From Azolla caroliniana (lineage: Eukaryota; Plantae; Polypodiophyta), in contig JBHGNT010000007.1 of the NCBI GenBank assembly GCA_043228905.1, positions 8,060,001 to 8,124,000 of the forward strand: a stretch of DNA of 64,000 bases. The letters run 5' to 3'. Under the pieces are notes generated by a model. The model had not been told where the DNA came from. It worked only from the letters and a program-made list of their open reading frames with translations, and did not search any database. Below, piece by piece: positions 29,977-56,280 of the stretch. Each line of letters opens with the position of its first letter. Position 1 is the stretch's first letter. Position numbers and translations under genes: made by a program.

Positions 29977-30018
<42 letters not shown>

Positions 30019-30213: not shown

Positions 30214-30277
30214 ACCCTTGATTTGAACCCACGACATCAACTTCGAAACGAGAGGTTCTCCACCCAATGAGCTAGTC
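30214..30277 (-). promoter_or_regulatory. tRNA-like A/B-box module in the G-A LTR (second copy at ~42180-42243)
   Basis: TAGCTCATTGG ...34 nt... GGTTCAAATC, which is tRNA spacing. Confidence 0.6.
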
Positions 30278-30500
30278 TTCTTTACTTGATTGTATTATTT
30301 TCTCACTCTCTCTTGATTCCTTCCTTTTTGTTTTCCTTTCCCCTCTTTTTATAAGTATTTCCATGCATATGGTAATGTCATGCATGTAATGCATGATCGC
30401 CATTTGGCGCACATGCATTGCATGTGATGAATGATGGCTATGTATGAAAATAGATATGAGATAATTATAATGATGAAAATGCATTTTAAAATAACTAACC

Positions 30501-30695
30501 TAGCTTAGTGGTGTATGCTTGGTGCTTGGTATACAAGGTTGAGGGTTCAAGTCCCTCAATTTTACTTAATACAATATATAGCTTCATTCTTATATCATGA
30601 AGCACATTTATTACATACTTTTAGAAATAAATAGCCTAGCTTAGTGGTATGTACATTGTACATCGTATATAAGGATGTGGGTTCAAGTCTCTCAA
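30501..30695 (+). promoter_or_regulatory. Two tandem tRNA-like A/B-box modules in the G-A LTR U3
   Basis: TAGCTTAGTGG (30501, 30637) followed ~32 nt later by GGTTCAAGTC(C). The first has a perfect T-arm GAGGG-TTCAAGT-CCCTC. No acceptor stem. Confidence 0.7.
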
Positions 30696-33600
30696 ATATT
30701 ATTAAATACAACATTTAAGCTCATTTTTATATCGTGAAGCACATTCTTCACGACACCCACCCCCTCTGAACTTGCACATTGGTTGTGTAGAGTTCGTCCA
30801 ACACTTCTTCCAATTCCTTTAGTTCTTCTACTTCTTCATAAAATTCAGGCTCTAATGACTCCCTCCTTTTAAATATTTTAATCCTTTTTCCTGCAATTGG
30901 GATACGAATTTCTGTCCCATCTAATTCATTGAGGAAATATGTGGCTTTATCTGTTATTTTCCTAACTTCATAAGGTCCAAACCATCTTTTTGCAAACTTC
31001 CGAATAGTACTGTATTGATTATCTAGGCTATTATCATATACTAATACCCAATCTCCCTCTTGCACCTTTCTTGGTCGTATTCTTTTCATCTTGTCAAATC
31101 TATCCTTATTCTTGATTCTTGCCTCTTTCAATCTAGTAGCTGCTTTTTCTATGTCTTCTATCCTTGATTGAAGTTGTCGTATTCGAACCGCAAGTAAATC
31201 TTCCCTACTCATTTCCGATTCCCAAGGCAACACAGCCCATGTAGTTATCTTTTCTTCAATTGGCATTATTGGCTTCTGTCCTGTGATTAATTCTGCAGGC
31301 ATATATCCAGTAACAGTGCTGTGAGTTGTCCTATCAGCCCATAGTGCATAGGGTAAGGTTTTTGGCCAATCACTAACCCGTCCTCTACATGCCTTTGCCA
31401 AAGCTTTGACTATTGGCCCATGTCCCCTTTCTACCTTTCCATTAGTTTCTGGATTGTACGTCGTTGTCAAAGAAAGCCGAATTCCTATTTTGTCGAAAAA
31501 ATCTTGAGCTTCCACAGAATTGAGTTGTCCCCTATCTGCCACTATCTTCCCGATACATCCATATCTACAAACAATGTCCTCCAAGATGAATTGACATACT
31601 CCTAATGTCCCTTTTGTTCTCAATGAACGACCTTCCACTTGATTTGTTAGATCTTCTCTAGCAAGAACCAAGTATCTCTTTTGTCCTACTCAAAGTGGCA
31701 TTGTTACCAAATCTATCATCCACTTGTAATGCACCCCCGGTGAGTATGTTGGGTGTAATTCATCACAAAATTTTACATTTGAATAATATTGACAAGTGGG
31801 ACAAGTTTCCACATACTTTTTTATTTGCTCATAGTATCGAGGCCACCAAAATCGTTCTTTAATCTTACTGAAAGTGGCCCACACTCCTCGATGACCAACC
31901 CATTCTTTGTCATGCAGCTCTTTGATTATCTCCTTTCATTGCCCTTCAGAACCTATTACTCTTTGCGGGTTTCCAGTCTTGGTTTTCGGATGTCGCCATA
32001 GATATCCTTCATGCAGGAAGAACTTATGGGCTTTCTTGCGAAACTGGGCGAACTCTTTTCCAGATCGACCTTTGTACTTGTCAGGGGTTTGTAGGTATTT
32101 CCCTATTTTCTTGAATTCTTCTTCATACTCCTCTTCTAGAAACTGCATTCCTCCTTCCCGAGTAATGCTTGTGGTAAGGACTGTTTGTTCTTTGTCCTCA
32201 TCGTCCGAGTCGGGAATCTCCTCTTCCTCATACCTTGCTCTTGATAACATATCTGCTACTGCATTTCTATTCCCAGAGATATGTCGAACTTCAGGGTTGA
32301 TTGATCTAATATAGATACACCATCTTAACATGGCTTGATCTGGAATATCACAATTAGCTATGATACCCAGAATAGGCAAACAATCTGTTTCTATTATTAC
32401 TTCAGCACCAATTAAGTAATCTCTGTCTGTCTTTACAGTTGTTACTATCCCCCATAGCTCTCTTTTCACCTGTGCATATTTTCTTTGTCGACCACTAAGA
32501 ACCTTTGCCCCGATTCGGACTGGATACCTTTCTTCCCTATCTTGTTGGCTTATCACCCATCCAATTCCAATGGGACTAGAGTCTACTGTGAGATATATGG
32601 GTCGGATGTAGTCTGGTTGCTTTAATGGTGGAGCTTGTGCCAAGTAGTACTTCAATTTCTTCATTGCCTCTGAATGCTCTTCACTCCATTCAAATGTCTC
32701 TCCTTTTCTTAGGAGTCTATATAAAGGTTCAGATAAATGGGCATAATGCGGAATCCATTTACAGTAAAAAACACATACCCCCAGAAACCTTCGTACTTCT
32801 GAGATGGATGTACATTCCTCTTGCATATTTTGAATTGCATTGACCTTGGTTGGGGATGGCTTTCTCCCATACGGGCCACACATATGACCAACTATTAATA
32901 TCTCTTTTGCCCCAAATATTGACTTCGCCCCTGATAAGGTCAAATGCACTTCTTCCATCCTTGATAGCACCTTCTCACAATCCTTGATATGATCAGCAAC
33001 GAATTGACGGCAACCACTTTCGTCCAATTCCTCATTCTTCTCTTCCTCCTTGCATCCCTTAATTGGAACATCATCTAGAAAAGGCATTGTAATATGAGGA
33101 ATAAAATCACGAAGTACCTTGTTCATTCCATTCATCATATGCGCCACTGAGTTGGTCGCTCCTTGCGGCAAGGTGCACATCCGTACTAACCCTATAGGTG
33201 TCTTGATAGAAGTTATATCTCGACTTTTGATAGCAAGTTGAAATTGATCATACCCGAAATAAAGGTCTCCCATTGAATATATAGCTCTTCCTGCAAACAT
33301 CTCAGCAAACTCATCCACAATTGGCCCTACTCCCGAGTTTCGGATTGTTACCTTATTCACGAGTTGCATATCTTGGATAAATCAGAGTCGCCCATCTTTC
33401 TTTAACATAGTGAACCATCGACTCGAGTAAGGAGCGTTCGATGGTTCCAAGATACCCATCCTTATCTTTTCTTTCAAAAGTTCTAATAGTTGAGGGATTC
33501 TAGCCCTAGGCATGGGTATTGGCTTAAAGTTCCATGGAATATGAGGGATAGTGAATATAACCATGGGCTCCACAATTTCTGGATCCACACACCCTATTTC

Positions 33601-33890
33601 CTCCGGTTGGAATGCGAACGCCTTTCCATGCCTTTTTAACATCTCCCTGAACTGCTTTTCTTCAGCGGGTAATAGGAAGTCACCCCCTCCTATTTTCATC
33701 CCTTGTATTGTTTCCGGAGTAAACACATGTCCTACCTTTCGTGGGTCTCTGATCATTGGCTCTGTGGCTGCTTCTTTGCTTGCCTTTTCACTATCCCCTG
33801 GAAGTGGAGCAGCAATAGGACGAACCTTCTTCTCCACTGTCTTGTACTTTGTTAGTACATGTGCTTCATGATCCTTTCGAGCAACTTCTT

Positions 33891-36800
33891 TGTTGAGAAG
33901 CAAGCTCAACATGGTATGCGATGCTTATGAGAAATAAGCTATAGTAGCTATTTAGCTACTAGTGAACAAAAAGGTAAAACAGCTATTTAGCTAGTGACAG
34001 CTAATTAGCTAGTGAACAGCTATTTAGCGACTGACAGCTAATTAGCTACTGGCAGCTAATTAGCTACATGTGTAATAACTTATGACTCAGGTAAAAGTAA
34101 GTGAGAGTGAATAGGAAGTAAGTAGTAAGAAGACATACAGTGAGTAGAGAACTCTGAGAGAGAGTGAGAGACCAGAAGACTGACGAGAGCAAGTTGAGCT
34201 CTACATGTAATAGAAGAAAACCATTTTGCTACTACAGAGGTAAGTCCCCTTTCCTTTCTCTGTCTGTTTAGAGCACGCTAACGATCCAGCACACTACGAT
34301 CCGTCGCGCATACAAAAGAAGAGCCTGAGTGCCTTCTTCACGTTTTCTTAACATGGTATCAGAGCAGAGTTGCTCATAAAGAAGAGTACAAAAGTGCATA
34401 GATTTGAGAAAGGTATTTCTCTGTTTGCTGATCTGAATCAGAAAGTTACTTGTTGAAGTAATCGTAGCAGAAACCCTTGTTTGGAAGGGAAAAAAAAAAT
34501 GGCTGCAGAGAATGTAGGCCAAATGGTCACAGAGAAATTAGATAAAAACAATTTCCCGGCGTGGAAATTCAGAATGACAAACTTTCTAATGGGGAAAGGA
34601 TACTGGAATTACATTGAAGGAGACCTAGAAGAGGCTCCAGAGATCCCAGAAGAGAATGCAACAGCTGCACATATTAAGGCATTTAAAGATTGGAATCAAG
34701 GGGCAAGGAAAGTAATGCATTGGCTATCACTCAACATCTCAGATTCAATGCTTGGGCATATACAAGATGCTATGCTCCCAAAAGAAGCTTGGGACAACTT
34801 GGTAAAACTGTTTGCTATGAACACAAAGGCTAGAAAGCTCCAGTTAAAGACTGAGCTAAATACCTTGGAGAAAGGTAAGATGTCAATAAATGAATATGCC
34901 CTAAAAATCAAGAGTATATGTGAATCACTTGCTTCTATCAATGTGAAGATAGAAGATGATGACAAAGTGGAAATATGCTTAAGAGGCTTAGGACCTCAAT
35001 ACAAGAGTTTTAAAACTTCTATGCTCACAAGGGATAGTATCCCAAGTTTTTCAGATCTGGTCTCAATGCTTGTGGTAGAGGAAAGGAATCAGACGGATGA
35101 TGCAAATAAAGGAAACTCAGAGAACGAGGGGCAAGCCCTCTATAATAATGCCGGAAGAGGCCGAGGAAGAGGCCATGGAAGATTTGGCTCAGGAAGAACC
35201 AATAATAATGGCTTTCAAGGAAGAGGACAACAAGCTCATAGAGGAGGAAACAACAACAGAGGCAGGGGGAGCAACCGAGGTAGAGGTAAGCAAACTTATG
35301 TAAATGATGATGGTTGCTGGTATTGTGGTAAACCAGGCCATACACAGGCTGAATGTTACAAGAAACAAAATGATGAGAAAAGAGGAAAAGGACAACAGAG
35401 TAACTATGCCTCTACTAGTGAAGATTGTGAAAAGGAAGGTGTTTTTGTAGTGCAACATGAGATAGCAGCAGTGGCTGAAAGCTCACAGAAATGTAATGAA
35501 GAGTTTACGTGGTATGTAGACTCGGGGGCATCTAACCATATGACTGGACATGCAAATTGGTTTGAGAGTTTAAGAGAACCAGAGGTTCCTGGTTATGTAC
35601 AAACAGGTGATGACACAACTCACCAAATAAAACATGTTGGAGATATCCCATTGTGGGAAGAAAGAGGAAAAACCAAGTATATGTTGAATGTGATGCATGT
35701 TCCAAACCTTGCTAAGAATCTGATTTCTGTTGGACAGATTGTAGAGCAAGGTATGCAAGTGAAGTTTAAGCAAAGTGGATGCTATATAGAAAAGAATGGG
35801 AAGCTCATTGCAAAAGGGAAGAGACAAGGAAGAATGTTTATCTTGGATGTAGAAATGCCCAAACAGATTTCAGCCATGTTTGCAAATGGAACGAGTGTAA
35901 TCTCAGATGTGGAAATGTGGCATAAAAGGATTGGCCATATAAGTATGCAAACATTAAAGAATATGTTGAGAAAAGATGCAGTGGCTGGACTGCCAAACTT
36001 GAAAAAGTGTGAAATGGGAAAAGTATGTGAAGCATGTCAATATGGTAAGCAAAACAGGTTGCCATTCCCTCATGAGAGACATGTAAGCAAAAATCTGTTG
36101 GATTTGGTACATACAGATGTATGGGGACCAACAAAGGATGCATCTATTGGTGGATGCAGATTTTATGTTACATTTATTGATGATTGTTCACGGAAGACAT
36201 GGGTGTACTTCATGAAGGAGAAAAGTGAAGTATTTGACTGTTTTCGTAAGTTTAAATGCATGGTAGAAAAGCAGGCTGGTACAAGGATAAAATGTTTGAG
36301 ATCTGATGGAGGAGGAGAGTATTTCTCCAATGAATTTTCTGATTTTTTTGTGTAATCAGGGAATAAGAAGACAGTTCACATGCCGATATACTCCACAGCA
36401 AAATGGAGTTGCTGAGAGGAAAAACAGAACTTTGGTGAACATAGCAAGGGCAATGATGACTGAGAAGAACATGCCATTATACTATTGGGCAGAAGCTGTA
36501 AATACAGCAAATTACATTTTAAATAGATGTATTACATCAGGAGTACATGAGGCAACTCCTGAAGAGTGTTTTTATGGCAGGAAGCCTAGCTTACAACACT
36601 TGAAAGTGTTTGGATGCCTTGCATATGTACATGTGCCTGCAGAAGTAAGAAGTAAGTTGGATCCAAAAGCAGAAAAATGTATCTTTGTTGGATATTCAGA
36701 AGAACAAAAAGGGTACAGATGTTATAACCCTGTGACTAAAAAGATTGTGACAAGTCAAGATGTGATATTTGATGAGTTGGCTAGTTGGTACAGCCCAAAA

Positions 36801-39328
36801 CAGAATCTAGAGATTGATGAAGACTGTCAAAATGAAGACAAAGACAGATCAGAAAATGTAGAAGACTGTCACAGAGATGGAGACAAGGTTGGACAGCAAA
36901 GTCCAACATCAACAGAATGTTCTGGACCATCAAAAAGCTCAGATGGTAAATCTGATTCAAATTCATGGAGTGGAAAAACTGGACAGAAAAAATCTGATGA
37001 CAAAAAAGGAAAACAGAAAATGCCAGAGTATGAAATCCCGGATGACCTATCAAAAAACATGGAAGATGAAGATTCAGATATGTCTTTGGATGATTTCCTT
37101 GGAATACAGGAAATGAAAATCCCTGGTATGGAAAAGGCAATAAAGAATGCAAATCAGAAACTGAGAAGATCAGATAGAGAGAAAAAGACTGTGGAAAGAT
37201 TTGGGTATGATACATATATGGCTATGCACTATGCATATATGTCTAAGGTGGTACAGATCCCTGACCCAAACAGCTTTGAAGAAGCAAAATCTGAGAAGAA
37301 ATGGATGGATGCAATGCAAGAAGAGATTGATGCATTGGCTGAGAACAAAACGTGGGATTTAGTGAAGTTACCAAAAGAGAAAAATGTGGTAGGCTGCAAA
37401 TGGGTCTACAAGACAAAGCATGACTCAAATGGGAATGTAAGTAGACATAAAGCAAGATTGGTTGCAAAAGGATATGCTCAGATGCAAGGGATTGATTATG
37501 ATGAGACTTTTGCACCGGTTGCAAAGATGGCAACCTTGAGAACACTACTTGCTGTAGGAGCAGCCAGAAAATGGATTTTGCATCACATGGATGTAAAAAA
37601 TGCCTTTTTACATGGTAACTTGGAAGAAGAAGTGTATATGAGTCAACCACCAGGTTTTGAAGATAAGAAACATCCTGATTATGTATGTAAGCTGAAAAAA
37701 GCTCTCTATGGACTGAAACAGGCACCAAGAGCATGGCATAGAGAACTTTCAGATTCTCTGAAAAATCTTGGTTTCAAAATGTCAAAAGCTGATCCTTCTT
37801 TGTATGTAAAAAGTGAAAATGATTGCATTGTTATTATTCTGATTTATGTAGATGATTTGATTATTGGAGGAGATTCCGTGGATGAAATAAGAAAGTTGGA
37901 AAAAAATCTGGAAATGCAGTTTCATATGAAAGATTTGGGAGATCTGAGATATTTTCTTGGTATTGAAATCATCAGATCTGAAAGTGGTATATGTATGTTG
38001 CAAAAACAGTATGCAACAACTATGTTGAAAAAGTATGGTATGCTTGGATGCAAACCTACTGTTGTACCACTTGATAAAAACTGCAAGTTGAGGGCTGATT
38101 TGGGAGCCAAGATAGAAGATGTAAACATGTACAGGTCTATGGTGGGCAGCCTTATTTATTTGACTATAACAAGACCTGATTTGAGCTATGTTGTTGGATT
38201 AGTCAGCCAGTTTATGCAACAGCCAACAAAGCCACATTTGGACTGCATCAGAAGGATTCTGAGGTATGTAAAAGCAACTCAGAACTTTGGACTATTTTAC
38301 AGGGCTGATCTAGACATAAATCTGGAAGGATATACAGATGTTGATTGGGCTGGAAGCCAAACAGACAGGAGATCCACAAGTGGATACATGTTTACCTTGG
38401 GAAGTGCAGGAATTTCATGGAGTAGCAAGAAACAGGCTACTGTTGCATTGTCCAGTACAGAAGCTGAGTATAGAGGGGCTGCAATAGCCACATGTGAAGA
38501 AGTATGGATCAGAAGACTGCTTGCTGATCTGGGAGTATATATAGATGGTGCTGTCACAATCTGGTGTGACAATATGAGCAGCATTCAGCTTGCAAAGAAC
38601 CCAGTGTTCCATGCAAGAACAAAGCACATTGAGGTGCATTATCACTTTGTTAGAGAAAAAGTGATGGAAGGTGAAGTTGATCTGGTGTATGTGAATACAA
38701 ATCAGCAGGTTGCTGATATCCTTACGAAGGGATTGAGTGTGGAAAAACATACACAGTTTCGGAACATGATGGGAGTTGTAAACATTGATGAGATGGCTAA
38801 AAAGCAAAATGGAAAAGAAGATTGAAGAGAACCTCAAGCAAGAATAAGTTGAGCTTGAGGGGGAGTGTTGAGAAGCAAGCTCAACATGGTATGCGATGCT
38901 TATGAGAAATAAGCTATAGTAGCTATTTAGCTACTAGTGAACAAAAAGGTAAAACATCTATTTAGCTAGTGACAGCTAATTAGCTAGTGAACAGCTATTT
39001 AGCGACTGACAGCTAATTAGCTACTGGCAGCTAATTAGCTGCATGTGTAATAACTTATGACTTAGGTAAAAGTAAGTGAGAGTGAATAGGAAGTAAGCAG
39101 TAAGAAGACATACAGTGAGTAGAGAACTCTGAGAGAGAGTGAGAGACCAGAAGACTGACGAGAGCAAGTTGAGCTCTACATGTAATAGAAGAAAACCATT
39201 TTGCTACTACAGAGGTAAGTCCCCTTTCCTTTCTCTGTCTGTTTAGAGCACGCTAACGATCCAGCACACTACGATCCGCCGCGCATACAAAAGAAGAGCC
39301 CGAGTGCCTTCTTCACGTTTTCTTAACA
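33891..39328 (+). mobile_element. Complete Ty1/copia element C3
   Basis: 463-bp LTRs 33891-34353 and 38866-39328 (6 substitutions). TSD TTCTT on both sides. PBS TGGTATCAGAGC 34354, PPT 38857-38865. Confidence 0.98.
34499..38825 (+). CDS. C3 gag-pol polyprotein, intact except for one frameshift at a T7 run (~36343-36349)
   Basis: ORFs 34481-36355 and 36306-38825 overlap at RSDGGGEYFSNEFSDF/LCNQGIRRQFTCRYTPQQNG. All copia motifs are present. Confidence 0.9.
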
Positions 39329-41760: not shown

Positions 41761-41778
41761 TTCTCCTCGTCCGCCGCC

Positions 41779-41796
41779 TTCACGTCGGGTTCACCA
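41779..41796 (-). promoter_or_regulatory. PBS complementary to tRNA-Trp (also 54793-54810 and 29639-29656)
   Basis: TGGTGAACCCGACGTGAA is the reverse complement of the plant cytosolic tRNA-Trp 3' end TTCACGTCGGGTTCACCA. There is a 4-nt spacer after the LTR in all three elements. Confidence 0.9.
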
Positions 41797-41936
41797 AATG
41801 TGTCGGGGTAGTTGTGGTTCGTGCGGCGAAGTCGCGGGGACTAAGGTTAAGCGGAGTTGAAGAAACTTAACTTTTAATAAGGCTTGTATGGTGATGATAG
41901 AATGGTTAAGGATAGTAAGAAGAAGAGTTACGAGTA

Positions 41937-41984
<48 letters not shown>

Positions 41985-42491
41985 AGAGCATAGATAAAAG
42001 ATAGAGACAATGTATGATTCAAGAAAGAAGATTGCGACAAAGTATGATTCTAGAATAAGATTGAGACAAAGTATGATTCAAGAAGCAAGAGTATATGATA
42101 TAAACATGATGTATATTAAAAAGACAATATTTTACCAACTTTACAATCCTTGATCGCAAACTGAACACATTCTCTATCGACCCTTGATTTGAACCCACGA
42201 CATCAACTTCGAAACGAGAGGTTCTCCACCCAATGAGCTAGTCTTCTTTACTTGATTGTATTATTTTCTCACTCTCTCTTGATTCCTTCCTTTTTGTTTT
42301 CCTTTCCCCTCTTTTTATAAGTATTTCCATGCATATGGTAATGTCATGCATGTAATGCATGATCGCCATTTGGCGCACATGCATTGCATGTGATGAATGA
42401 TGGCTATGTATGAAAATAGATATGAGATAATTATAATGATGAAAATGCATTCTAAAATAACTAACCTAGCTTAGTGGTGTATGCTTGGTGC

Positions 42492-43685
42492 CTGGGACTA
42501 CGGTTTCCCTGTCTTCCGCGTTCTGATTCGGTAAGGAGCGCTTTGGAGTTGGAGCTCGTATCTTTATCTTTCCGACACGCCTCCTCATCTAGCAAGCTCG
42601 ACTTTACTCTTGCTAGGGATAACCGCTTTCCTTCCGGCCCGGCGTTGCCCAAAGTGACAACCAACGTCTCCCAGCTATCCGGGAGGGAACCGAGCAGGAA
42701 TAGCTCTAGTACCTCGTCGGCGAGAGGTACTTCCAATTATGTTGCCTGGTGGATCAGCCCCTAGAAGGCATTCATGTGCTCCGCCATGTTGGAGCCATCT
42801 TGGTACTAGAATCTTACTAGCTTCCGGAATACCGAAACCTGATTAACAACATTTTTGTTTTGAAACATTATGACAATCTTCTCCCAGAGCTCATGAGCCT
42901 TGCTCTCTTCATTGAAGTTGTTGTACAGGCTCAGCCGCTCATGTCAATGAGGGCACCGTATGTACGCCGTTGTCTTCATGTGCATCACCTCCCATATCGC
43001 GGCGTCGATTTTGTCTGGTCTCTTGTCCCCGAACTGAACCGGCAGCCAGAGGTCTTTAACCACGATCATGTCCCTCATCCTCGACTTCCACACTGAATAG
43101 CTGGAGCCGGTAAGCTTGAACATGCCGCCAAACGATTCGTCCATTTTCTGTGTCGTTTCGCTCTGATACCACTTGACGGGAACTCAACGCTCCTTCTACA
43201 CGACGCTCAGCCACAACCGAGCTTAGAATCATACACAGAAAACGGGAAATAAATGCGCGACACTGTGAAGAGAAGTGTACACGGGATGTTTACGTGGAAA
43301 ACCCAAACTAAGGGAAAAACCACGGCAGCCCACAGGCTGCAAACTATCACTATGTTAGAATGTACAACAGTGAGTTCAAAGAGGCAACGACCTCATGCTC
43401 ACGATCTTCGCCACAGGCAGCGGTTACAACAAAGGCAACGACCTCTTTCTCTCTCTCTCTCTCTCTCTGCACACAGTTACGCGCTCTCTCTTTTCTTGCA
43501 CCAACAAGAAATGACAACAACAACTAAAAGTTTGCCCTAAGTCATATTTATACTAATATGACTTTTCGGCTATTTACAAATGTAGCCACGATGGACTCTC
43601 AGAAACATATTTACAAATATGTCTCTTCATCCGGAGAGCATTCCTCACCGGGTCTGCACCATCCGGAGGGACCTGTCTCCCAACA
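42492..43685 (-). mobile_element. Tork/Tnt1-type copia C6, 5' LTR (43174-43685), Met PBS, partial gag
   Basis: MFKLTGSSYSVWKSRMRD and LLGSLPDSWETLVVTL. PBS ends 43171. Inserted into the C5 integrase. Confidence 0.88.
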
Positions 43686-44263
43686 GCATGTAGTCGTCGA
43701 TGAAGGAGACGAAATATCGGCTCCCACCAAGACTAACGTTTTGTGCCAGCCCCCATACATCGGAATGAATAATGTTGTCGTGCCTTTCGACTCCGGATCG
43801 TTGCGTGAGTCGGGTGGGAACCGCTGGGGTTTTGGACTAAGAGGAAAGAAAATTCTAAGTCAATTAAGAATATGAAATATATTGTAAGAAAGAAAAATAT
43901 GAAAACTTCGTGAATCCCATGAGTATAGTGTATTAGTGAGTAATCAAATTAAGAGAGAATAGTTAGCAAATTCCTGAATCCCACGATTATCTTATATTAA
44001 TCAACCCTTGTAAAATAATCAACAACCTCTATACATCTTTCTCTCTTCCTTATATAGTGTTGGAAGAGTCTCAGTTTATCACATGCAAGCATCATGCTTT
44101 TTCTATCTTTAGTTTTCATGTACACTGCATGTGCATGATTAGCTTTATATCTCATCTTTTCTTTTTAACTCGAGTGTCTATGCATGAATAACTTTTGTAC
44201 CATGCATGTCTAGAAATTTTACATGGAATAAAGTTTAGTATAACTTTAAAATTCATAATACCC

Positions 44264-44322
44264 TACTATAATGATAAGGCTTAACATTATTAACATGGAG
44301 GTGCAAGGTTCGAATCTTGCCC
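44264..44322 (+). promoter_or_regulatory. Degenerate tRNA-like A/B-box module in the G-B LTR (copy at ~55303-55360)
   Basis: TACTATAATGA...GCAAGGTTCGAATCTTGC, homologous to the cleaner module at 56113. Confidence 0.55.
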
Positions 44323-47300
44323 TATGCATGTTATATATATTTTTTATACTTTCTTCTATTTACAAATACGTCTCTTCATCCGGTGAGATACTCTCATCGG
44401 CCTTCTTCATCCAGCTCTTTCCGGTTCTGCTTCATCTAGTGCTTGATAGTTTTCTTTGTCCGGTTCTTACCGGGACCTCCTTACCGATCTCTGCGTCCGT
44501 TTCTCACCGACTCTCACCGGCCTTCTTCATCCAGCTCTTGCCGGGTCTCCTTGCCGGTTTCGGTCCTTACTAGTTCCTTCTTCCGGTTCTCACCGGGTAC
44601 TCCATGTCCTATCTGGAGAGACCAAAAATGTAATTTTTCACGTAGTGTATGAATTACACTACGACACTCGCCTCCTCCGAACCCGCACATCCTCCGGTAT
44701 GTGCCGAAGTCCCCGATGCTTGCTATTCACCTTCATCCGAAGCTTCCTCCGATTCTCCCCTTAAGTCAACGATGAGTTCTAATCCACTTTCTTCACTTTC
44801 CGCATCACCGCGATCTTCGTCCGATTGCTCCTTCTGGTCTGTCTTGTCTAGGATCACATAGGGTTCTTCATCAGTTCGCTTCTTGAAAATCTTCACCCGT
44901 TTCCCGGCTATAGGCACTCGTAGCATTGTTCCATCTAACTCACATAGTCGGTAAGTTCCGCTGTCGAAAACTTTCCGAACCTCGTATGGACCGAACCACC
45001 TTTTCGCGAACTTCCGCATCGTTGTATGTTGATGATCCAAACTACTATCGTAGACAATCACCCAATCTCCCTCTTCAATCTTCCACGGTCGTAGTCGGTG
45101 CTTTGTGTCGAACCGGCTTTTATTCCGGAATCGCGCTTCTTGTTGTCGGCGTATTGCTTCTGCTATGTCTTCCGGTCTTCCCTCCAGTTGTCGTATCCGG
45201 ACCGCTAGTAGTTCTTCCCGGCTCATCTCTTCCTTCCATGGTAGCATTGTCCATGTCGCAATTGCGGTTTCCGTCGGCATTACCGGTGCTTGTCCGGTCA
45301 TGAGTTCTGTCGGCATATAACCGGTTACGGAGCTATGCGTTGTCCGATCCGCCCATAGTGCATACGGGAGCATCTGCGGCCAATCCATCACCCTTCCGTC
45401 GCATGCTTTGGCAAGTGCTTTGACGATCGGACTATGTCCTCGCTCGACCTTCCCGTTGGCTTCCGGATTGTATGCCATTGTTAGTGTTAACCGAACTCCA
45501 TGTTTGGCGAAGAATCCCCTAGCTTTATCAGAGTCAAGTTCTCCCCGATCCGCAATCACTTGTCCTACGCACCCGTACCTACAAAACACTTCTTCCAAAA
45601 GGAATTGGCATACCATAGAACATGTTTTCCTCCGTAGCACCCGACCTTCTACTTGGTTTGTGAGATCTTCCCGAGCTAACACTAAGTACTTCTTTTGTCC
45701 GATCCCGGTTGGCATGGCTACAATGTCGACCATCCATTTGAAGTTGATTGTCGGTGAGAATGTCGGATGTAACTCATCTCGGTGTCAAACTCTGGAGTAG
45801 ATTTGACACTTCTCGCAGCTTTCCATGAACTCCGAGACATCTTTGTACATATTCTTCCACCAATATCTTTGCTTGATCTTCCCAAATGTTGCCCATGTTC
45901 CCCGATGTCCAGCCCAATCAGATTCATGAAATTCGGACATTACCTGGTTTCATTGCTCTTTTGTCCTGACTACTCGAAGTGGTATGCCACCCGGTCTTTT
46001 CGGCTCCCTCCATAAAAACCCATTTTTCAAGAAGAACTTTCGGACTTGCCGTTTCTTACTTCGGACCTCGGCTCTCTTCTCTTTATTGTCCGATGATTCC
46101 TCGATTTCTTGTAGCATTTTCCCGATCAACAAGCTTTCTCCCTCATATTCTTCTTCCCGGAATTCTTGGATTACGTCCACCCGGCATATGTGCTCCGAAG
46201 CAAAGTAGTCTTCGGAAACTTCTTCATTATCGGATTCAGTTATGTCATCTCCGAACCGCGCCCTTGATAGCATATCCGCTACAATGTTGTCTTTTCCGGA
46301 GATGTGTCTTACCTCCGGATTAAGTGACTTAACATATGCAATCCATCTTAGCATAGCCACATCCGGTATCGTGCAACACCGCATCATCCCGAGTATCGGA
46401 AGACAATCCGTTTCGATCACTACTTCGGCTCCGATCAAATAATCTCGATCTGATTTGATTGCCGACACGACTCCCCATAATTCTCTTTTAACTTGTGCAT
46501 ATCCGTGTTGCCTTTCGTTGAGAACCTTTGCTCCGAATCAGATCGGATATCGCGAACCTTCCGGATCGGCTTGATTGATGACCCATCCGATTCCAGTTGG
46601 ACTTGTGTCAACCGTTACTATGATCGGTTGGTCATAGTTCGGCTTCTTTAGTGCTTCTGCCCTCCGTAGTGATTTCTTGAGCTTCTTCACGGCTTTGGTA
46701 TGCTCCAGTTTCCATTCAAACTTCTTACCCTTCCGCAACAAGTGATAGAGTGGGTCCCCTATATGTGCATAGTGCGGAATCCATATGTGGTAGAATGCAC
46801 ATGCTCCAAGAAACCTTCGAACTTCGGATTGTGACTCGCATACTTCTTTCATAGCTTGAATCACATCGATCTTGGTTGGTGACGGTCTTCGGCCGTAGGG
46901 CCCACATAGATGTCCGACTACCAATATTTCTTCTTGTCCGAATGCCGATTTCTCTCCGGAAAGTGGTAGATGCACATCTTCTAACTTCCGTAACACTTTC
47001 TCACAATCACGGATATGATTGACTACAAACCTTCGGCATCCCCGTTCATCCATAGCTTCCTCTTTTTCTTCCACCGCACACCCTTTCATCGGAATATCAT
47101 CTAGGAACGGCATCGTTATCTCCGGTATGCAATCCCAGAGCACCTTGTTCATCGCATTCATCATATGTGCAACTGAGTTCGTCGCGCCTTGTGGTAGCGT
47201 ACACATCCGGACTAATCCTATCGGTGTTCGCATGGTAGTGATGTCTCGGCTCTCCACAGCTAGTTGGAAATGGTCATATCCGGAATATAGGTCTCCGATG

Positions 47301-48201: not shown

Positions 48202-48265
48202 GTGGGGTATCAGGGCTTCTCGGACTATCACTTCCCCACTCCGCAACAATCCGCTCTAAAAATCC
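48202..48265 (-). promoter_or_regulatory. Predicted -1 ribosomal frameshift signal of G-B
   Basis: G GAT TTT TAG followed by the stem CGGATTGTTGC/GTGATAGTCCG. Loop GTGGGG pairs with downstream CCCCAC. The -1 frame is continuous with ORF 47465-48121. Confidence 0.82.
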
Positions 48266-48636
48266 ATTCTTGTTTGGAACAAGAGCTCTCTCTTGTTCCT
48301 TTCATGATTTGCCGGCACCGTTAGGAATTGGACGGATTTCCCTCCGTTTTGGCTCCGAATTCGCGCAAAAGCCGCACCGCTATCGAGCACCTTCGTCTCC
48401 ATCCATGATGTCGTGATAAAAGGTTGCCCGAGGATCACGGAGTGTGAGACCTCGTCTTGTACGAAGAAATTTTGGTCGATCTCGACATCCCCGATCTTCA
48501 CCGTCACATCCGGACAAGCCGCAAATAGATCTTCCGTTGCTTTAGTGGCCGCCCGGATCTTCCACCCATGATTCGTGTTAATAGGCCACTTACCCTTCCG
48601 ATAGAATTCCTTGGACATCAAATTGATCTCCGGTCC

Positions 48637-51600
48637 GTAGGCTGCTTCTTGCTACTCCAAGATATTGTTCCGCTGCCGAGGGAGAAAACAAATCTGGAGG
48701 TTGATCTTCTATTGGCTTTGTAGTCGGCCCAATCGGCGTCGGTGTACCCCTCGAATCGTATTGGCATTGCAGTCTTGTAGAGGATGCCGCAATCCATTGT
48801 GCCGCTCACATATCGCAGAACTCACTTAGCGCAATCCAAGTGAGTATCACCCGGTGTTTGCATGAATTGGCTAAGGAGACCGATCGGATAACTGAGATCG
48901 GGTCGAGTGATCGTGAGGTAGAGGAGACTCCCGATGAGTTGCCGATACTGAGTCGGCTCACACGCTTTGGTGCCGGAGTTCGCATCTAGTTTGAGATTAC
49001 GATCGAGCGGGGTTGCCACGGATTTGCACTCAGCCATCCCGAACTTGTATAACAAGTTGAGGATGTAGTGCCGTTGAGAGATCATGATTCCGGCCGGAGT
49101 CCGAATTACCTCGATGCCGAGGAAGTAGTGGAGCTCCTTCATGTCCATCATCTTGAACTTGTCGGAAAGGAGGGATTTGACCTTACTGATTTCGACGAGA
49201 TGCTCACCTCCAATGACTAGGTCATCCACATATAAAATGATGACGATCGGATTTGCGGAATCGCTTCGTATGTAGAGGGAGTTGTCCGATTTTGACATAC
49301 GGAAGCCGATTTGATGAAGATATTGCGTTATCTTCAAATGCCAAGCACGCGGTGCTTGCTTGAGGCCATAGAGTGGCTTCTTGAGTCGGCATACAGCTTT
49401 CGGATGGGTGCTCGAGTTGAAGCTGGGTGGTTGGATCATGTACACCTCCTCTTCTAATTCGCCTTGTAGAAAGGCGTTCTTGACGTCCATCTGATGGAGG
49501 TGCCACCCTTTCGCCGCGGCAATCGCAATTACGGTCCGCACCGTCGTCATCTTTGCCACCGGTGCAAAGGTTTCTTCGTAGTCGACGCCATGTGTCTGAG
49601 CGTATCCTTTCGCTACGAGTCGAGCTTTGTAGCGGTTGACGGAACCGTCCGCGTTGTACTTCACTTTGTAGATCCATCTGCATACGATCGCCTTTTTGTG
49701 GGAACGAGATCCCATGTCTCGTTCTTCCGTAGTGCCTGCATCTCCTCGGTCATTGCTTCGATCCATCGCGGGTCCTTCGCAGCTTCGGAAAAGGTTTCCG
49801 GCTCCCGTACTGTTGCTACCTTCATCATAAAGGCGTAATGGTGCGCCATATAATCATTGTAGCCGAATCGGCTTACGGGGTTCTTTTCCCGAGTGGATCG
49901 GCGGAGCTTTTCATTTGCAGAGATGAGGGCTTTCTTTGCTCCGATTGGTACCTTGAAACCGTCGAACTCACTGTCGAGTGAGTGAGTTGACTCATTGTCG
50001 GTGAAGCGATCGTCTTCGTATTCCGCCATTTTCGCCTTGCCTTTGTCCATCTTCGGGCTAGGCCGTGATGTGCTTTGATCGCTCAAAGGCTCTTGTGGTC
50101 CGCTCAGTCGGGTCGTGATCGTACTTTCTTCGAACATGCGCGTAAGATGATCTTCATCCTCTATCTCTTGTTCGGTGGATTCTGGGTCGAGCGGAGTCGG
50201 AGGCGAAGTTGTCTCTGGTGCGTACTAGGATGCGAACTCGTCAAAGACGACGTCTCGACTTACCCAAGATTTTCGAGTTGAGGGGTTGTAGCACTTGTAC
50301 CCCTTTTGCTCCAGTGAGTATCCTACGAGGATACATTTCTCCGACTTCGGGTCGAGCTTTTCACACTTCTCATCGGGGATGTGCACGTACGCAATGGAGC
50401 TGAATATCCGAACATGTGATAGGTTCGGCTTCTTTCCAAAGAATCTTTCGTGCGGAGTGACCTCGTGCACGTCAGATGTTGTGCACCGGTTCATTAGGTA
50501 GACAGCCATATTTGCCGCTTCAGCCCAATATGACTTGGGCATATGCTTCTCGTTCATCATGGCCCGCGCTACTTCGAGGATGTGCCGATTTTTGCGCTCG
50601 GTTACTCCGTTTTGTTGCGGAGTGTGTCGGCAAGTGAATTCTCGCCGAATTCCTTCCTTTCAGAGATACGCCGTGAAATCATCCGAGAAATACTCCTTGC
50701 CGCCATCCGATCGAAGGCATCGTACATGTCGGCCCATGGCTTTCTCGACTTCATTCTTGAGCTTTTGGAAGTGTCCGAACACTTCGCTCTTTTGCCGCAT
50801 CGGATAGATCCAAGTGTGCCTAGAAAAGTCGTCGATGAAGAGCACGTAATATCAGCATCCGCCGAATGTCGCCGTTTGGGCCAGTCCCCATACATCAGAA
50901 TGAATTACGTCGAGTACGCCTTTGCTCACATTCCGCTCCTTCGGGAATGGGTGTTAGTGTTGCTTGCCGAATTGGCACGCTTTGCATACACCTTCAATCT
51001 CCTTCTCTTTGAATGTCGGGAGTCCGATAACGACTCCTTTCGATCTCATTGCTTTGAGTTTGTTGAGATTGATGTGGCCGATTCGCTTATGCCATAGCTC
51101 TATGTCGGAGTCGGCTTTCGTGCTTTTCGCGAACATGGCGGATTTCATTTCGTGCGAATCGAGAATGAACATCCAGCCCTCTCTTCTTCCGCGTGCGATG
51201 ATCCGGCCTTCTTTTTCGATGAAGCACCCTTCTTGGTCGAATCGTACTTGCATCCCTTGCTCAACCATTTAGCTGACCGAGACCAAATTCTTTGTGATGG
51301 TGGGAACATGCAAGACATTTTTAATATATGTTTGCTTACCTCTTTCGTCGAACGGAACATTGCCGATGTGCCGAATCGGGTGCGTAGTGTCATCTCCGGT
51401 TTCGACATAACCGGGTCGCTCCGGCTCTCGAAGTTCGAGAAACCATTCTTTATGGGATGTCATATGGTTTCAGGCTCCGGAGTCTACAAACCATACTTCC
51501 TCCGGATTGAGGGCACTAGTTGAGGTAGAGGCCGACATAGAGTTTGCTCTATGTTTCATCATGAACATTCCGCCACGGTCGGAGTTCCATGCATACATTC

Positions 51601-52800
51601 CGCCACGATCTTTGTAGTCGGAGTTGTTCCCGTACATTCCGCCTTTGTAGTCGGAGTTGTTCCCGTACATTCCGCTATACTCTTCGTAGTCAGAATTGTG
51701 TGCGTAATTTGTGAGTTGTCGGCTTGTGGAAGTCGATTCACGCATCTTCTTTCGGCACTCTTCTTCGTGGTGGCCGAGCTTTCCACAATATCCGCATTCG
51801 GTTGCATTTTGACGGCTCGGGCCGGATTGGAAGCTCCCCCTTCTTGCGAAGGTTCCTCGTTGGCCTCCGTTTTGCAGCCGAAATTGGGAGTTGTTGTTGT
51901 AGGTCGGACCTCGTCCACCTTGTCCTTGGCCGAATCGGCCTCTCGCTCGTCCGCGTCCTCTTCCTCCATTAGAGTGCGTGTAGAGCATGTGGCCTTCCGA
52001 CTCATTGCTCCTTGTACGCACGTGGTTTTCTTCGACCAATAGCATTGATTGGAGCTCGAAGAAGGATGGAGATTTCTCCCGTGCTAGAACGGCGGTTCGC
52101 ATCGCGCCGAACCGTGGTGCGAGGCCGCCGAGGCATATTTGCACCATCTCATCATCATCTATACTTACGCTTATTGAGCTGAGCGAGTCGCAAAGCTCCT
52201 TGATCTTCAAGGTGTATGTCGTGATGGACATGTCCCTTTGTTGAATGTTGTTCAACTCTTGGCGGAGTTGAAGCTTCCTCGCGATCGTGTTGGCGGCGAA
52301 AATCTTTCGTAGATTTTCCCACGCTTCCTTCGGCATCTTGGCTTCACGAATGTAGCCGAGCATGTGATCATGAACACATGTCGCCAAGCAATACATCACG
52401 CGGCTTGCGGCTTGCTCCCATGTCACGTATCCAGGAGCCGCTTCGGCGGGTCGGTCTTCATGTGCTCCTTTGATGTAGCTCCAATAGCCTTGTCCGACAA
52501 GGTATTGGTGCATCTTGTACTCCTAAGATGCGAAGTTGTTTCGATCCAACTTCTCGGTAGGGAGAGCGCTCCCCATTTGAGTATTCATTATGTCGATTCT
52601 TCTTCTTTTTCTCTCTTCGAATGCGAGCTATGTAGCGAAGCTACGATAGCGATGAGCCAGTTCTTGGTCGTCAGCGTGGAGCACAACACACGATCACGAT
52701 GAGGCGAATGGGCTAGATCGAGCTACCAAATCACTCTGATACCATGTAAAGAATCAAGAGATGGATTCTTGTGAAGCGGAATAGGTGTGAACTGTGTGTG

Positions 52801-52834
<34 letters not shown>

Positions 52835-53134
52835 AGTAATACACAGAGAATACGCAAGGTAAAGTATATTTGCAAAGGAGAAAGACTCAACTCTATACAA
52901 GGTGGGAGGAGGGTGCTTTATGTAGTCACCCTCTCTCTTCATTAACTACAAAGCTCATGGAGCATGGGGAATGTGAAAGCTCATAAGTTATGTGTCATAG
53001 AATATGATTCTATGACTCATACTAAATGCTAGAATACACAGTGGTGACATAATGGTGACTCTTGACCGTTGGAGTGTCTCTTCACTCTCAAGGTGAGTTC
53101 ACACACTAGACCAAGTTGAGCTTGATTCTCAACA
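48637..53134 (-). mobile_element. Copia C4, 3'-deleted, inserted in the G-B protease active-site region
   Basis: 5' LTR 52745-53134, PBS ends 52744. Gag, PR, IN and RT remnants run up to WSSKKQPT. Host ALI|...EINLMSKEF flanks it. Confidence 0.92.
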
Positions 53135-55412
53135 CAATCAATGCTAGCACCGGCTCTTTGATGTTACCGATTTGGACTGGAGTCTCCGTAGTTGCGCGTG
53201 CCCAGTGTGGCTTTGTGTAGTGAGAATTCGGTATTTCGTCCTCCAATTCGGTGTCATTCATTAGAACAGTATTTGCATTCACCCTGGGAGCGTTCTCCTC
53301 CGTACTTTGCCTTTTTCTCTTCACGAGATCCACAAGAAGATCGTGGAACTCCTTCGTTATTCCGAGTAATTCTCGAAGCGAAAAATCTACCCGGCTATCG
53401 AGGATTCTCTCCTCGAACACCTTTTTCAAGTCCGTTTGTTGTTCGATGTCCAAGGCGAGCTTGAATGCTGGAATCATCTTTTCTTTTCTTTTCCAGCTTT
53501 CCAGTGTCTTCGATGGACCGGCCTCCTCATCCGTGCGCCGTCGCTTCTCATCTACATACACTTCATGCAATTCGCATAAAGCAAACACGCTATTCTTATC
53601 GACGGGGCACTCCCCTCCCGTAGCTTCCCGAATGCCTTCTGCGGTGCTTCGGATCTCATTAGAGTCGGTTTTCTCGGTGTTTTCTAGCACTTCCGGCCAA
53701 AAAGACACCGTTGCTCCCGATGACTCCCCGACACGTATTCCCGTGGTTGTCGCGTAATTGTTCTTCGCCGCTATTTCCTCCTCTAGGACCTTCTTTATGC
53801 CGCCTTTTCGGAAGTTCGGTCGGAGCGACTTCCGAGAGTCCATCGAATGAGTCCGATTTCCCTCGTAGTAGATAAGATCCTGTCGTAGCGCTTCCTTGTG
53901 CTCGTCGCAATCCCTCCGATCATGTTCGGTGCTATCGCACCATATGCATCGACGATCCATATACTTGGAACTTGTGGGACGGTCATCCGACTTCTTCACC
54001 ATCGCAATTTTTAGATTCTCCATCTCCTTCAGCAACTGCTCCACCGTAGTTGCGTCGATTCCCTTCTCAGTCGTAGCTTCCCGAGCCCGCGGTTGATGGT
54101 CTTCCAAACCGGATCTCGGTTTCGGAATCGGTTCCGAAACCCTCTTTTCTTCATTGGCAAGCCATTGCCCCCTCTTTGTATATCGCGCGACGATATCCCG
54201 CACGCTTTCCCATGTTTCGGTGAGGCCACTCTCGGTAGTCTTGTTCTCTAGAAGCACTCCAAGATCCTTCCGGTCTCGGACGTCTACGGCTCGTAAGAAC
54301 ATGATAACTTTGTCCGGTGCGAGGATAGCTTGATCTCTCGCAAACAACCTCCCGAACTGACTTTCGAATGCCGAAAACACATCGAGGACCTTCATACCCT
54401 TGTCCGGCGTTTCCACCCAATCCTCGAATCCTCTCCGCGTTGCCTTGGAGGAGTCCTCGATAGCGAACGTGGTCTTTAGCGCCTCTTCAAACGCTTCCCA
54501 TGTCGGATTTTGTTGTCGTAGCCCGTGGATACTTGCTTGAAGCCCGTCGGTAGCCACCCGGTTGAAGGATGCCACTTGCAGTCCTTCCGAAATCCCACAC
54601 CGTAGCATTTCTGCCTTGTAGTCCCGAAGATAGCGCAATACGTCCTTCCCGTTGAATTGCCCGATCCGTTGCACGAGCCGCTCTACTGTCGCCGCTATCT
54701 CCGACATCGCACGTTGTTCTTGAAGCATCCGCTCGAACATCATCATCATGTTGTTAGCCTCCGGTTGATTCTCCATCTCCTTGCCACCCGTGTTCACGTC
54801 GGGTTCACCACTTGTGTCGTGCCTTTCGGCTCCGGATCGTTGCGTGAGTCGGGTGGGAACCGCTGGGGTTTTGGACTAAGAGGAAAGAAATTTCTAAGTC
54901 AATTAAGAATATGAAATATATTGTAAGAAAGAAAAATATGAAAACTTCGTGAATCCCACGAGTATAGTGTATTAGTGAGTAATCAAATTAAGAGAGAATA
55001 GTTAGCAAATTCGTGAATCCCACAATTATCTTATATTAATCAACCCTTGTAAAATAATCAACAACCTCTATACATCTTTCTCTCTTCCTTATATAGTGTT
55101 GAAAGAGTCTCAGTTTATCACATGCAAGCATCATACTTTTTCTATCTTTAGTTTTCATGTACACTGCATGTGCATGATTAGCTTTATATCTCATCTTTTC
55201 TTTTTAACTCGAGTGTCTATGCATGAATAACTTTTGTACCATGCATGTCTAGAAATTTTACATGGAATAAAGTTTAGTATAACTTTAAAATTCATAATAC
55301 CCTACTATAATGATAAGGCTTAACATTATTAACATGGAGGTGCAAGGTTCGAATCTTTCCCTATGCATGTTATATATATATTTTTTATACTTTCTTCTAT
55401 TTACAAATACGT

Positions 55413-56280
55413 TGTCGTGCCTTTCGGCTCCGGATCGTTGCGTGAGTCGGGTGGGAACCGCCGAGGTTTTGGACTAGGAGGAGGAAGAATTTGAGGCTAA
55501 TCTAGTTATGAATATGAATAGATTATAAGAAAGAGATATAGAAACTTGTGAATCCCACAAGTATAATTGTTTTAGTTTATCTAAATCGTAGTAATAAATT
55601 GAAATAATTTAGAATAGATTAGAGTAGATTGAGAAAAGAGATCAAACCTTGTGAATCCCACAAGTATTACATTAATCAATATTTATGTAAGAATATGAAT
55701 TTAGATTGAAAGAGATAGATTATCTTAAACTTCGTGAATCCCACGAGTATATTTTATTGATTGTTGGTGTTTTAGGAAATATATCCAATTTCCCAAATAT
55801 TTTTCACACTATTACATTGTGCTCCCCATCCTTATGTAGTGATGGGAGAGACTAAGCATAGCTACATGCTTTTTTTTTTTAATATGTTCATGCACACTAA
55901 ATATGCATGTGATGCTTTTCTAATCCTTGCTTTTATTTGCTAAATATAGTGCTCATGCACGCTAGATGTGCACGAGTCACTTTTTAGTTGCTTGCGTTTT
56001 TTCTATAAAATATTCACACACTCTAAAAATGCACGATTTACCTTTTAATAAAGGTAGGTGCAAATAAAGCACTTATAGTTATTAAATCTATTTGTAGAAC
56101 ACTAAAGATAAGGTAGCATAATGGTAAAGTTGAGGTTTGGTTACGTGGAGGTACAGGGTTCGAATCCTGCCCTATGCACGTGATAAATATTTTGATATTC
56201 TTATTTTATTTATTTATATGTAATTAAATCATTTATATTATTTTTACTTTTTCACGTAGTGTACGAAATACACTACGACA
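55413..56280 (-). mobile_element. Solo LTR of a G-B sister family, inserted in the G-B 5' LTR
   Basis: TGTCG...CGACA with the same termini as G-B but a different interior. TSD ACGT (55409-12, 56281-84). Confidence 0.92.
56113..56170 (+). promoter_or_regulatory. tRNA-like A/B-box module in the solo LTR
   Basis: Consensus A box TAGCATAATGG, 32 nt, then consensus B box GGTTCGAATCC. Confidence 0.72.

What the first reader, a model, noticed from the sequence alone, without database searches (positions are those of the whole stretch)
30214..56170. tRNA-like Pol III promoter modules built into the LTRs of the Trp-gypsy lineage
Seen: A-box/B-box pairs at tRNA spacing occur in three distinct LTR types: G-A (30501, 30637, plus an opposite-strand one at 30214-30277), G-B (44264, 55303) and the solo LTR (56113). 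A degenerate B-box-like match lies in G-C (~25345-25365). In G-A and G-B they sit in U3, upstream of and divergent from the TATA box. The boxes and T-arm are kept, the acceptor and anticodon arms are not, and I see no SINE tail or TSD. Known: Cassandra TRIMs carry 5S Pol III promoters, and TFIIIC-bound B boxes act as chromatin barriers in yeast and mammals. Inference: these elements carry their own insulator or Pol III antisense unit so they can stay active in the methylated nests they target.
Basis: partly seen in the sequence, partly recalled or inferred. Interest (0 to 1): 0.8.

Follow-up and report, generated by a model that had tools for sequence, protein, structure and literature searches.

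The report
tRNA promoter boxes inside gypsy LTRs
Two unrelated groups of plant jumping genes carry the two promoter boxes of a tRNA gene as a fixed part of their end repeats, within a few hundred bases of their own promoter, and in the older families these boxes change more slowly than the DNA around them, so they likely bind the polymerase III factor TFIIIC; whether that shields the element from silencing is untested.

Summary
tRNA-type A/B-box pairs lie at the stated places and are fixed parts of the LTR in 28/28 G-A, 27/27 G-B, 30/30 solo-type and 19/19 G-C copies. All 30 strict matches examined lie in LTRs, none in a dispersed SINE. The elements are Phygy-like (Trp primer site, NCGN target). 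The module is not lineage-wide: 4 of 29 unbiased Trp-primed LTRs have it. An unrelated chromovirus family, also in this window (10123-10176), has it in 25 of 30 LTRs; 0 of 30 Met-primed LTRs do. Key box residues are more conserved than matched flanks in G-A and the chromovirus (p 0.013 to 5e-5), but not in G-B, solo or G-C. The hairpins do not co-vary, orientation varies, and the B-box CpG decays like methylated DNA. Best reading: captured, selected TFIIIC sites beside the Pol II promoter; insulation is unproven. Closest known: Helenus and Cassandra TRIMs. Here the carriers are full-length coding elements. This scan noted similar LTR modules before in fungal-like genomes.

The parts
29841..30755 (-). 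G-A 3' LTR (Phygy-like element on the minus strand); TATA-like box at 30345-30355
   Evidence: polypurine tract follows 30755
30501..30554 (+). G-A module 1: A box 30501-30511, B box 30544-30554; antisense to the element, in U3, about 145 nt upstream of TATA
30637..30690 (+). G-A module 2: tandem duplicate of module 1, antisense, in U3
30219..30274 (-). G-A module 3: sense, about 70 nt downstream of TATA; three divergent haplotypes keep box-like motifs
41801..42495 (-). G-A 5' LTR, cut off inside module 1 (A box at 42467); module 3 copy at 42185-42240; Trp primer site at 41780-41796
43776..44666 (-). G-B 3' LTR; TATA-like box at 44048
44264..44317 (+). G-B module: degenerate A box (3 mismatches), perfect B box; antisense, in U3
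54815..56564 (-). G-B 5' LTR (54815-55412 and 56281-56564), split by the solo LTR; outer target duplication ATGT
55303..55356 (+). G-B module in the 5' LTR
55413..56280 (-). Solo LTR of a young family of short (2.4-3.6 kb) elements; target duplication ACGT
56114..56167 (+). Solo-LTR module: perfect A and B boxes, antisense, in U3
25348..25401 (-). G-C module: sense, in U3, about 80 nt upstream of the TATA-like box at 25256-25265; tRNA-Arg-like loop kept
10123..10176 (-). Module in a chromodomain-bearing (Tcn1-like) gypsy LTR that starts at 10092 on the + strand (TATA-like box at 10291); antisense, in U3, pointing out of the element

Best explanation
The modules are tRNA-derived A-box/B-box cores that are fixed, inherited parts of the LTRs of several Phygy-like gypsy families and of an unrelated chromovirus family, and they are likely kept by selection as binding sites for TFIIIC, which would help hold the neighbouring Pol II promoter of the LTR open. 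Shown: position within about 350 bp of the TATA-like box, a 32-34-nt gap, inheritance through replication, loss of the acceptor stem, excess conservation of box residues in older families, free orientation, duplication, and absence from other families. Inferred: at least two, probably three, separate captures of tRNA or tRNA-derived sequence during reverse transcription. Also inferred: TFIIIC binding, with or without short Pol III transcripts of about 80-110 nt ending at the first T run, and a barrier or nucleosome-clearing effect on the 5' LTR of the few active copies. My odds: about 0.65 that the boxes are under selection, about 0.3 that the selected role is specifically a barrier.
For: Fixed in every copy aligned. 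There are 2307 strict matches genome-wide against 0 for the reversed pattern, and 30 of 30 examined lie in LTRs. The module persists across families whose RT is only 63-72% identical, and in metagenome LTRs 70-83% identical to this genome's families, at the same 32-nt gap. Eleven box positions named beforehand against base-matched spacer and flank columns: chromovirus 0.88 vs 0.74 (48 copies, p 0.001) and 0.88 vs 0.65 (12 representatives, p 5e-5); G-A module 1, 0.97 vs 0.86 (p 0.003); module 2, 0.92 vs 0.83 (p 0.013). Across 21 antisense Phygy modules: key positions 0.81, spacer 0.49, flanks 0.37-0.40. 26 of 28 G-A copies keep at least one intact antisense module. No co-variation of the hairpins, which points to a DNA-level role. 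A tRNA-gene barrier in fission yeast needs TFIIIC and Pol III and is independent of orientation (PMC2040200, abstract).
Against: No excess conservation in G-B (0.97 vs 0.98, p 0.80), the solo family (0.98 vs 0.95, p 0.26) or G-C (0.89 vs spacer 0.93); module 3 is borderline (p 0.064). The G-B A box is degenerate family-wide. The largest, recently active Trp-primed radiation has no module. Of the first 100 B-box sites listed, 48 keep the CpG, 24 carry the tolerated change, 25 the breaking change and 3 both (counted by hand), which is symmetric decay of methylated DNA. In the solo family, module cytosines are mutated more than R/U5 (CG 12/120 vs 18/660; CHG 20/90 vs 0/180), mostly in both LTRs of an element, so the U3 of transposing parents was probably methylated. 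The p-values treat columns as independent and the copies are related. The cross-family set was partly found by its boxes. L209 has a decayed module and L202 none.
Confidence: 0.5

Rival explanations
1. Neutral relic: tRNA or old SINE fragments were copied into U3 and hitch-hike with the LTR. The boxes look shared only because all tRNAs share them and because decayed copies escape detection.
For: Flat conservation in G-B, solo and G-C; symmetric CpG decay; absent from the dominant radiation; whole tRNA-Arg copies ending in CCA lie beside LTR-like ends in this genome (L340, L341), so capture happens.
Against: Box-specific conservation in a chromovirus set anchored mostly on the polypurine tract (28 of 48 copies) and in G-A; gap fixed at 32-33 nt while spacers diverge; acceptor strands lost while boxes are kept; repeated capture close to the TATA, and duplication; 0 of 30 Met-primed LTRs (5 clusters) have it.
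Confidence: 0.25
2. Active Pol III unit whose transcription or short RNA regulates the element, for example by damping the adjacent Pol II promoter or by feeding small-RNA-directed methylation of U3.
For: Both boxes are kept at tRNA spacing in most families; AT-rich upstream DNA and a T4 run 3-33 nt after the B box in 7 of 8 modules listed; excess C-to-T change in the solo-family module, CHG included; foamy-virus LTRs carry Pol III units with functional A and B boxes (PMC3993851, passages).
Against: No folding signal (mean z -0.36 on the module strand); no co-variation; orientation varies; T runs are expected in such AT-rich DNA.
Confidence: 0.15
3. Landing pad: the modules attract integration by other retrotransposons, as Pol III genes attract yeast Ty3.
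For: Suggested by earlier notes on other genomes; Ty3 needs intact A and B boxes (PMC5911963, passages); the solo LTR lies 56 nt beyond a G-B B box.
Against: Only 10 of 233 insertion flanks have a module within 400 nt, at scattered distances (102-312 nt) and none at the start site; 167 of 199 Phygy-like flanks simply read NCGN.
Confidence: 0.04
4. Helenus-type use: Pol III makes the genomic RNA from the LTR module.
For: Sense modules exist (G-A module 3, G-C, L100, L117).
Against: Most modules are antisense; T runs follow within tens of bases; the elements are 2.4-7 kb or longer and keep a TATA-like box.
Confidence: 0.03

Closest known systems
Helenus (TRIMp3; Kojima 2024, PMC10886601; parts 1-4 of 6 of the text and searched passages read; supplements not read)
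   Same: tRNA-derived sequence inside LTRs, conserved around boxes A and B, not a functional tRNA, several independent origins; one plant example (Selaginella). The paper also says that 'not a few' Repbase LTRs contain part of a tRNA.
   Different: Helenus are non-coding TRIMs of 311-1263 bp thought to be transcribed by Pol III. Here the carriers include 6.8-kb gag-pol elements with a TATA-like box, the modules are mostly antisense in U3, up to three per LTR, and of either orientation.
Cassandra TRIMs (PMC7215508, passages; described in PMC10886601 and PMC12786077, passages)
   Same: Pol III promoter built into plant LTRs; tandem arrays also occur in the solo-LTR family.
   Different: 5S type (boxes A and C), sense, drives the element's own RNA, non-autonomous, Met primer site.
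Phygy clade of non-chromovirus Ty3/gypsy (Neumann et al. 2019, PMC6317226; passages and one supplementary row)
   Same: tRNA-Trp primer site, 4-bp NCGN target duplication, coding region filling the interior.
   Different: The passages read do not mention LTR-borne A/B boxes; placement among REXdb references was not tested.
Pol III microRNA units in foamy-virus LTRs (PMC3993851, passages)
   Same: A/B-box Pol III units inside the LTR of an autonomous, Pol II-transcribed retroelement.
   Different: Those encode structured microRNA precursors; no conserved hairpin product is supported here.
tRNA-gene and SINE chromatin barriers (PMC2040200, abstract; PMC8136502, abstract)
   Same: Pol III promoter elements acting as orientation-independent or mobile boundaries.
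   Different: Shown in fission yeast and mouse; in mouse B2 the boundary limited open chromatin and lowered neighbouring expression, and CTCF was involved. Nothing comparable was tested here.

Membership tests
Type 2 (tRNA-type) Pol III promoter | A box and B box matching the consensus (consensus recalled, not from a call) at tRNA spacing | tested here: met
   host tRNA-Arg has a 33-nt gap; the G-B A box is degenerate
Type 2 (tRNA-type) Pol III promoter | TFIIIC/Pol III binding and transcription | not testable with these tools
   no RNA holder listed; only contigs could be laid
tRNA gene | Cloverleaf with acceptor stem | tested here: not met
SINE | Dispersed copies with their own tail and TSD, independent of LTRs | tested here: not met
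   30/30 strict matches in LTRs; of 30 B-box-only sites, 14 lie in LTR modules, 4 in one other repeat and 12 are unassigned, with no good A box
Helenus/TRIMp3 | tRNA-like sequence with conserved boxes in both LTRs | tested here: met
Helenus/TRIMp3 | Non-coding and shorter than about 1.3 kb | tested here: not met
   6.8-kb elements with 680-aa and 1164-aa frames (RT, RNase H, integrase); the short family is 2.4-3.6 kb, and the one copy examined has a 748-codon frame
Cassandra | 5S rRNA-derived A and C boxes | tested here: not met
   no 5S match in Rfam at E<=5; the boxes are tRNA-type
Phygy | tRNA-Trp primer site | tested here: met
   primer-site motif at 41787 and 54801, 5561 exact copies; its reading as Trp is recalled and agrees
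Phygy | 4-bp NCGN target duplication | tested here: met
   167 of 199 flanks
Phygy | No chromodomain; RT-RH-INT order | tested here: met
   Pfam on L357 pol and on window frames
Phygy | Phylogenetic placement with REXdb Phygy references | not tested
   no reference sequences were fetched
Tcn1 chromovirus clade (element at 10092) | Chromodomain after the integrase; no tRNA primer site | tested here: met
   PF00385 at E 1.6e-11 in L360; no tRNA-type primer site seen after the 5' LTRs by eye; clade traits from PMC6317226
Tcn1 chromovirus clade (element at 10092) | Phylogenetic placement | not tested
   RT only 25-30% identical to G-B RT; no references

The most novel reading that the evidence does not exclude
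Autonomous plant gypsy elements of two unrelated clades have repeatedly captured tRNA promoter boxes and use them as self-carried TFIIIC barriers that keep their Pol II promoter open inside methylated retrotransposon nests: a portable anti-silencing device, and a first lead to tRNA-type insulators in plants.
Probability: 0.3. Interest if true: 0.8.

Novelty: new variant of a known kind. Interest (0 to 1): 0.52.

Why it matters
Pol III promoters in plant LTRs are described for tiny non-coding elements that use them to make their own RNA (Cassandra; proposed for Helenus). Here they sit, mostly backwards, beside the ordinary promoter of full-length elements in two unrelated clades and show signs of selection, which calls for another function. 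If TFIIIC binds, thousands of mobile sites (2307 strict pairs; 17115 B-box matches against 2031 for the reversed control) shape chromatin in this genome. Sister families with and without the module would then give a ready natural comparison for testing whether tRNA-type barriers work in plants. Ten literature searches turned up no description of this arrangement in Phygy or Tcn1 elements. The library lacks most subscription papers, and Repbase entries may note it.

Tried and rejected
Expression: no RNA holder listed. Laying three contig sets shows only presence and says nothing on transcription. RNA-structure selection: no folding excess. Pairing each module's own arms against other modules' arms gave p 0.41 and 0.77 for the T arm and no signal for the D arm or spacer (the first set included the sense G-C module, which I had mis-oriented at that point; one search repeats the identity profile without it). 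Single compensatory-looking changes in T stems were therefore not counted as evidence. Source tRNA: compared with 63 host and organellar tRNA sequences of 13 types only; Arg(TCT) scores best for L095, G-C and G-B, with no clear source for the others. Pairwise whole-LTR alignments gave 153/198 identical key positions vs 387/576 spacer positions (p 0.009), but several of the 18 comparisons were misaligned and they are not independent. Monophyly of the module-bearing families: unresolved. They form one side of a branch in the unrooted integrase tree. In the RT tree an unlabelled metagenome element (L210) falls among them and the one-clade test is rejected (p-AU 1.7e-5). G-C is closest to the module-less radiation. 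Landing pad: not supported. Weak A/B pairs at 16186, 22631, 31247 and 52344 are within the chance rate (2.8 per window at that stringency) and were dropped. The Pfam identity of the 748-codon frame in L362 was not obtained. The original Cassandra paper was not held.
Full report
Setting. The window is a nest of LTR retrotransposons in a 523-Mb plant assembly (G000, contig C7). G-A, G-B and G-C lie on the minus strand, with pol regions 64.5-66% identical and RT, RNase H and integrase domains. Their primer site occurs 5561 times exactly in the genome, and 167 of 199 insertion flanks read NCGN. A Trp primer site and a 4-bp NCGN duplication define the Phygy clade in Neumann et al. 2019 (PMC6317226; passages and one supplementary row). 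I call the elements Phygy-like, because placement among reference sequences was not tested. That paper reports Phygy from a moss and Tcn1 from moss and club-moss, so the host is probably a non-seed plant; I did not determine it.

The observation. All stated sites are present. Three are perfect A/B pairs with a 32-nt gap, against none in 30 shuffles. The G-B module has a perfect B box and a degenerate A box. G-A carries two antisense modules in U3 (a tandem duplicate) and one sense module downstream of the TATA-like box. The G-C site is a full module, sense, upstream of its TATA-like box; the window copy is a worn one. No tRNA gene is called. Against host tRNA-Arg(TCT), 23 modules average 0.68 (A box), 0.51 (spacer) and 0.76 (B box), but 0.09 and 0.27 for the two acceptor strands.

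Not a dispersed SINE. The module region is present in 28 of 28 G-A copies (30 fetched; one truncated and one near-duplicate dropped), 27 of 27 G-B copies (30 fetched; 3 interrupted or truncated copies dropped), 30 of 30 solo-type copies and 19 of 19 G-C copies (20 fetched, one duplicate dropped). These sets were best hits to queries that included the module. A strict A+B pattern has 2307 matches against 0 for the reversed control. The first 30 all lie in LTRs, 28 Phygy-like and 2 chromoviral. The B box alone has 17115 matches against 2031; 14 of the first 30 are LTR modules, 4 belong to one other repeat and 12 are unassigned.

Distribution. Sampling by primer site, blind to the module, 4 of 29 complete LTRs carry an antisense module, and these are the four AT-rich ones. 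The 25 GC-rich LTRs give one weak sense hit; the shuffle rate is 6 of 580. The four module-less elements whose RT could be read are 90-99% identical to each other, whereas module-bearing families are 63-72% identical. So the module is old or was captured several times, and a recently successful radiation does without it. In metagenome contigs (122 stretches, DNA listed for 80), 8 of 36 complete Trp-primed LTRs carry an antisense module at the same gap. They include relatives 70-83% identical to this genome's families; one relative has a decayed module and one has none. Full-length carriers with LTR pairs 99.7-99.9% identical and long gag and pol frames exist.

A second lineage. The site at 10176-10123 lies in the U3 of an LTR starting at 10092 whose family carries a chromodomain, with RT only 25-30% identical to G-B. 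Sampled by polypurine tract, blind to the module, 25 of 30 such LTRs have a full antisense module, 2 are cut down to the B box and 3 are decayed. 0 of 30 Met-primed LTRs (5 clusters, 600 nt scanned) have one. Separate capture is the simplest reading; transfer of U3 between lineages is not excluded.

Selection. Eleven box positions named beforehand were compared with base-matched spacer and flank columns. The excess is clear in the chromovirus (0.88 vs 0.74, p 0.001; 12 representatives 0.88 vs 0.65, p 5e-5) and in G-A modules 1 and 2 (0.97 vs 0.86, p 0.003; 0.92 vs 0.83, p 0.013). It is borderline for module 3 (p 0.064) and absent in the solo family (p 0.26), G-B (p 0.80) and G-C (0.89 vs 0.93). 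The solo and G-B sets are young, so power is low. Columns and copies are not independent, so these p-values are optimistic. Across 21 antisense Phygy modules, key positions are 0.81 identical, spacers 0.49 and flanks 0.37-0.40, but most of these were found by their boxes. Hairpins do not co-vary and fold no better than shuffles. What is conserved is thus the box sequence and spacing, as expected of a TFIIIC site (A- and B-box recognition: PMC5911963, passages).

Against simple insulation. In the first 100 of 3957 sites, the B-box CpG is intact in 48 and lost equally by the tolerated and the breaking route (24 vs 25; 3 both, counted by hand). That is neutral decay of methylated copies, expected of dead insertions, and it gives no support for selection. 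In the solo family, module cytosines are more mutated than R/U5, while eight LTR pairs differ at only 0-3 sites. The changes therefore arose mostly in the 3' U3 of parents that still transposed. This shows the module is no methylation-free island in 3' LTRs. It cannot speak to the 5' U3, which acts as promoter but is not inherited. No RNA or occupancy data were available. A landing-pad role is not supported.

Mechanism. Most likely, tRNA or tRNA-derived sequence was copied into LTRs during reverse transcription (inferred; whole tRNA-Arg copies ending in CCA lie next to LTR-like ends elsewhere in the genome). It lost the parts needed for a tRNA and was kept where the boxes fell near the Pol II promoter. 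TFIIIC bound there would clear nucleosomes or block spreading of silent chromatin in active copies (inferred from fission-yeast barriers, which are orientation-independent; PMC2040200, abstract). Free orientation and duplication fit this better than one RNA product. A neutral relic (0.25) and a regulatory Pol III transcript (0.15) remain open.

Novelty. tRNA-derived, box-conserved sequence in LTRs is published as Helenus, and that paper notes that 'not a few' Repbase LTRs contain part of a tRNA, but it analyses only short non-coding TRIMs (PMC10886601, parts 1-4 of 6 and passages). Its supplements, which I did not read, may list longer elements. My searches found no account of such modules in autonomous Phygy or Tcn1 elements. 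Earlier notes of this scan report LTR-borne tRNA boxes in fungal-like genomes; they are unchecked leads, not support. Verdict: a real, partly selected feature and a new variant of a known kind; function inferred, not shown.

Noticed in passing
window 59816-60121 (-): Plant signal recognition particle (7SL) RNA-like sequence, 104.5 bits against a cut-off of 105: a Pol III-type gene or pseudogene 3 kb from the nest.
   Followed up: no
L340 1029-1104 (-), L341 1038-1113 (+): Whole tRNA-Arg(TCT) copies ending in CCA, in L341 directly followed by an LTR-like start. This fits earlier notes on elements whose polypurine tract is replaced by a tRNA-Arg end.
   Followed up: partly
window 55413-56280; G000:C12:3268521-3280714; L362: The 'solo LTR' family consists of very young 2.4-3.6 kb elements, with one 748-codon frame in L362, and includes a tandem array with a 2881-bp period.
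   Followed up: partly
window 55413-56280 family alignment: R/U5 shows far fewer C-to-T and G-to-A changes than U3 (CG 0.027 vs about 0.10), which suggests the 5' LTR of active parents is less methylated than the 3' LTR.
   Followed up: partly
window 30360-30435, 44075-44210, 55860-55975: Blocks of CATGCA (RY-like) motifs between the TATA-like box and the module in module-bearing LTRs; window 30390-30414 is the most conserved 25-nt stretch of the G-A LTR (diversity 0.014).
   Followed up: no
L365, L368, L376, L377: Another GC-rich repeat family with a perfect B box but no good A box.
   Followed up: no
window 24226-24774 and 21354-22585: A tandem repeat of about 104 bp inside the G-C LTR region, and a long palindromic MITE-like element.
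   Followed up: no
G000:C383 (L002, L032, L036, L454): A small contig that repeats this window's elements at 97-99% identity; probably a haplotype duplicate.
   Followed up: no
window 2742-2841: A 100-base assembly gap (N run).
   Followed up: no
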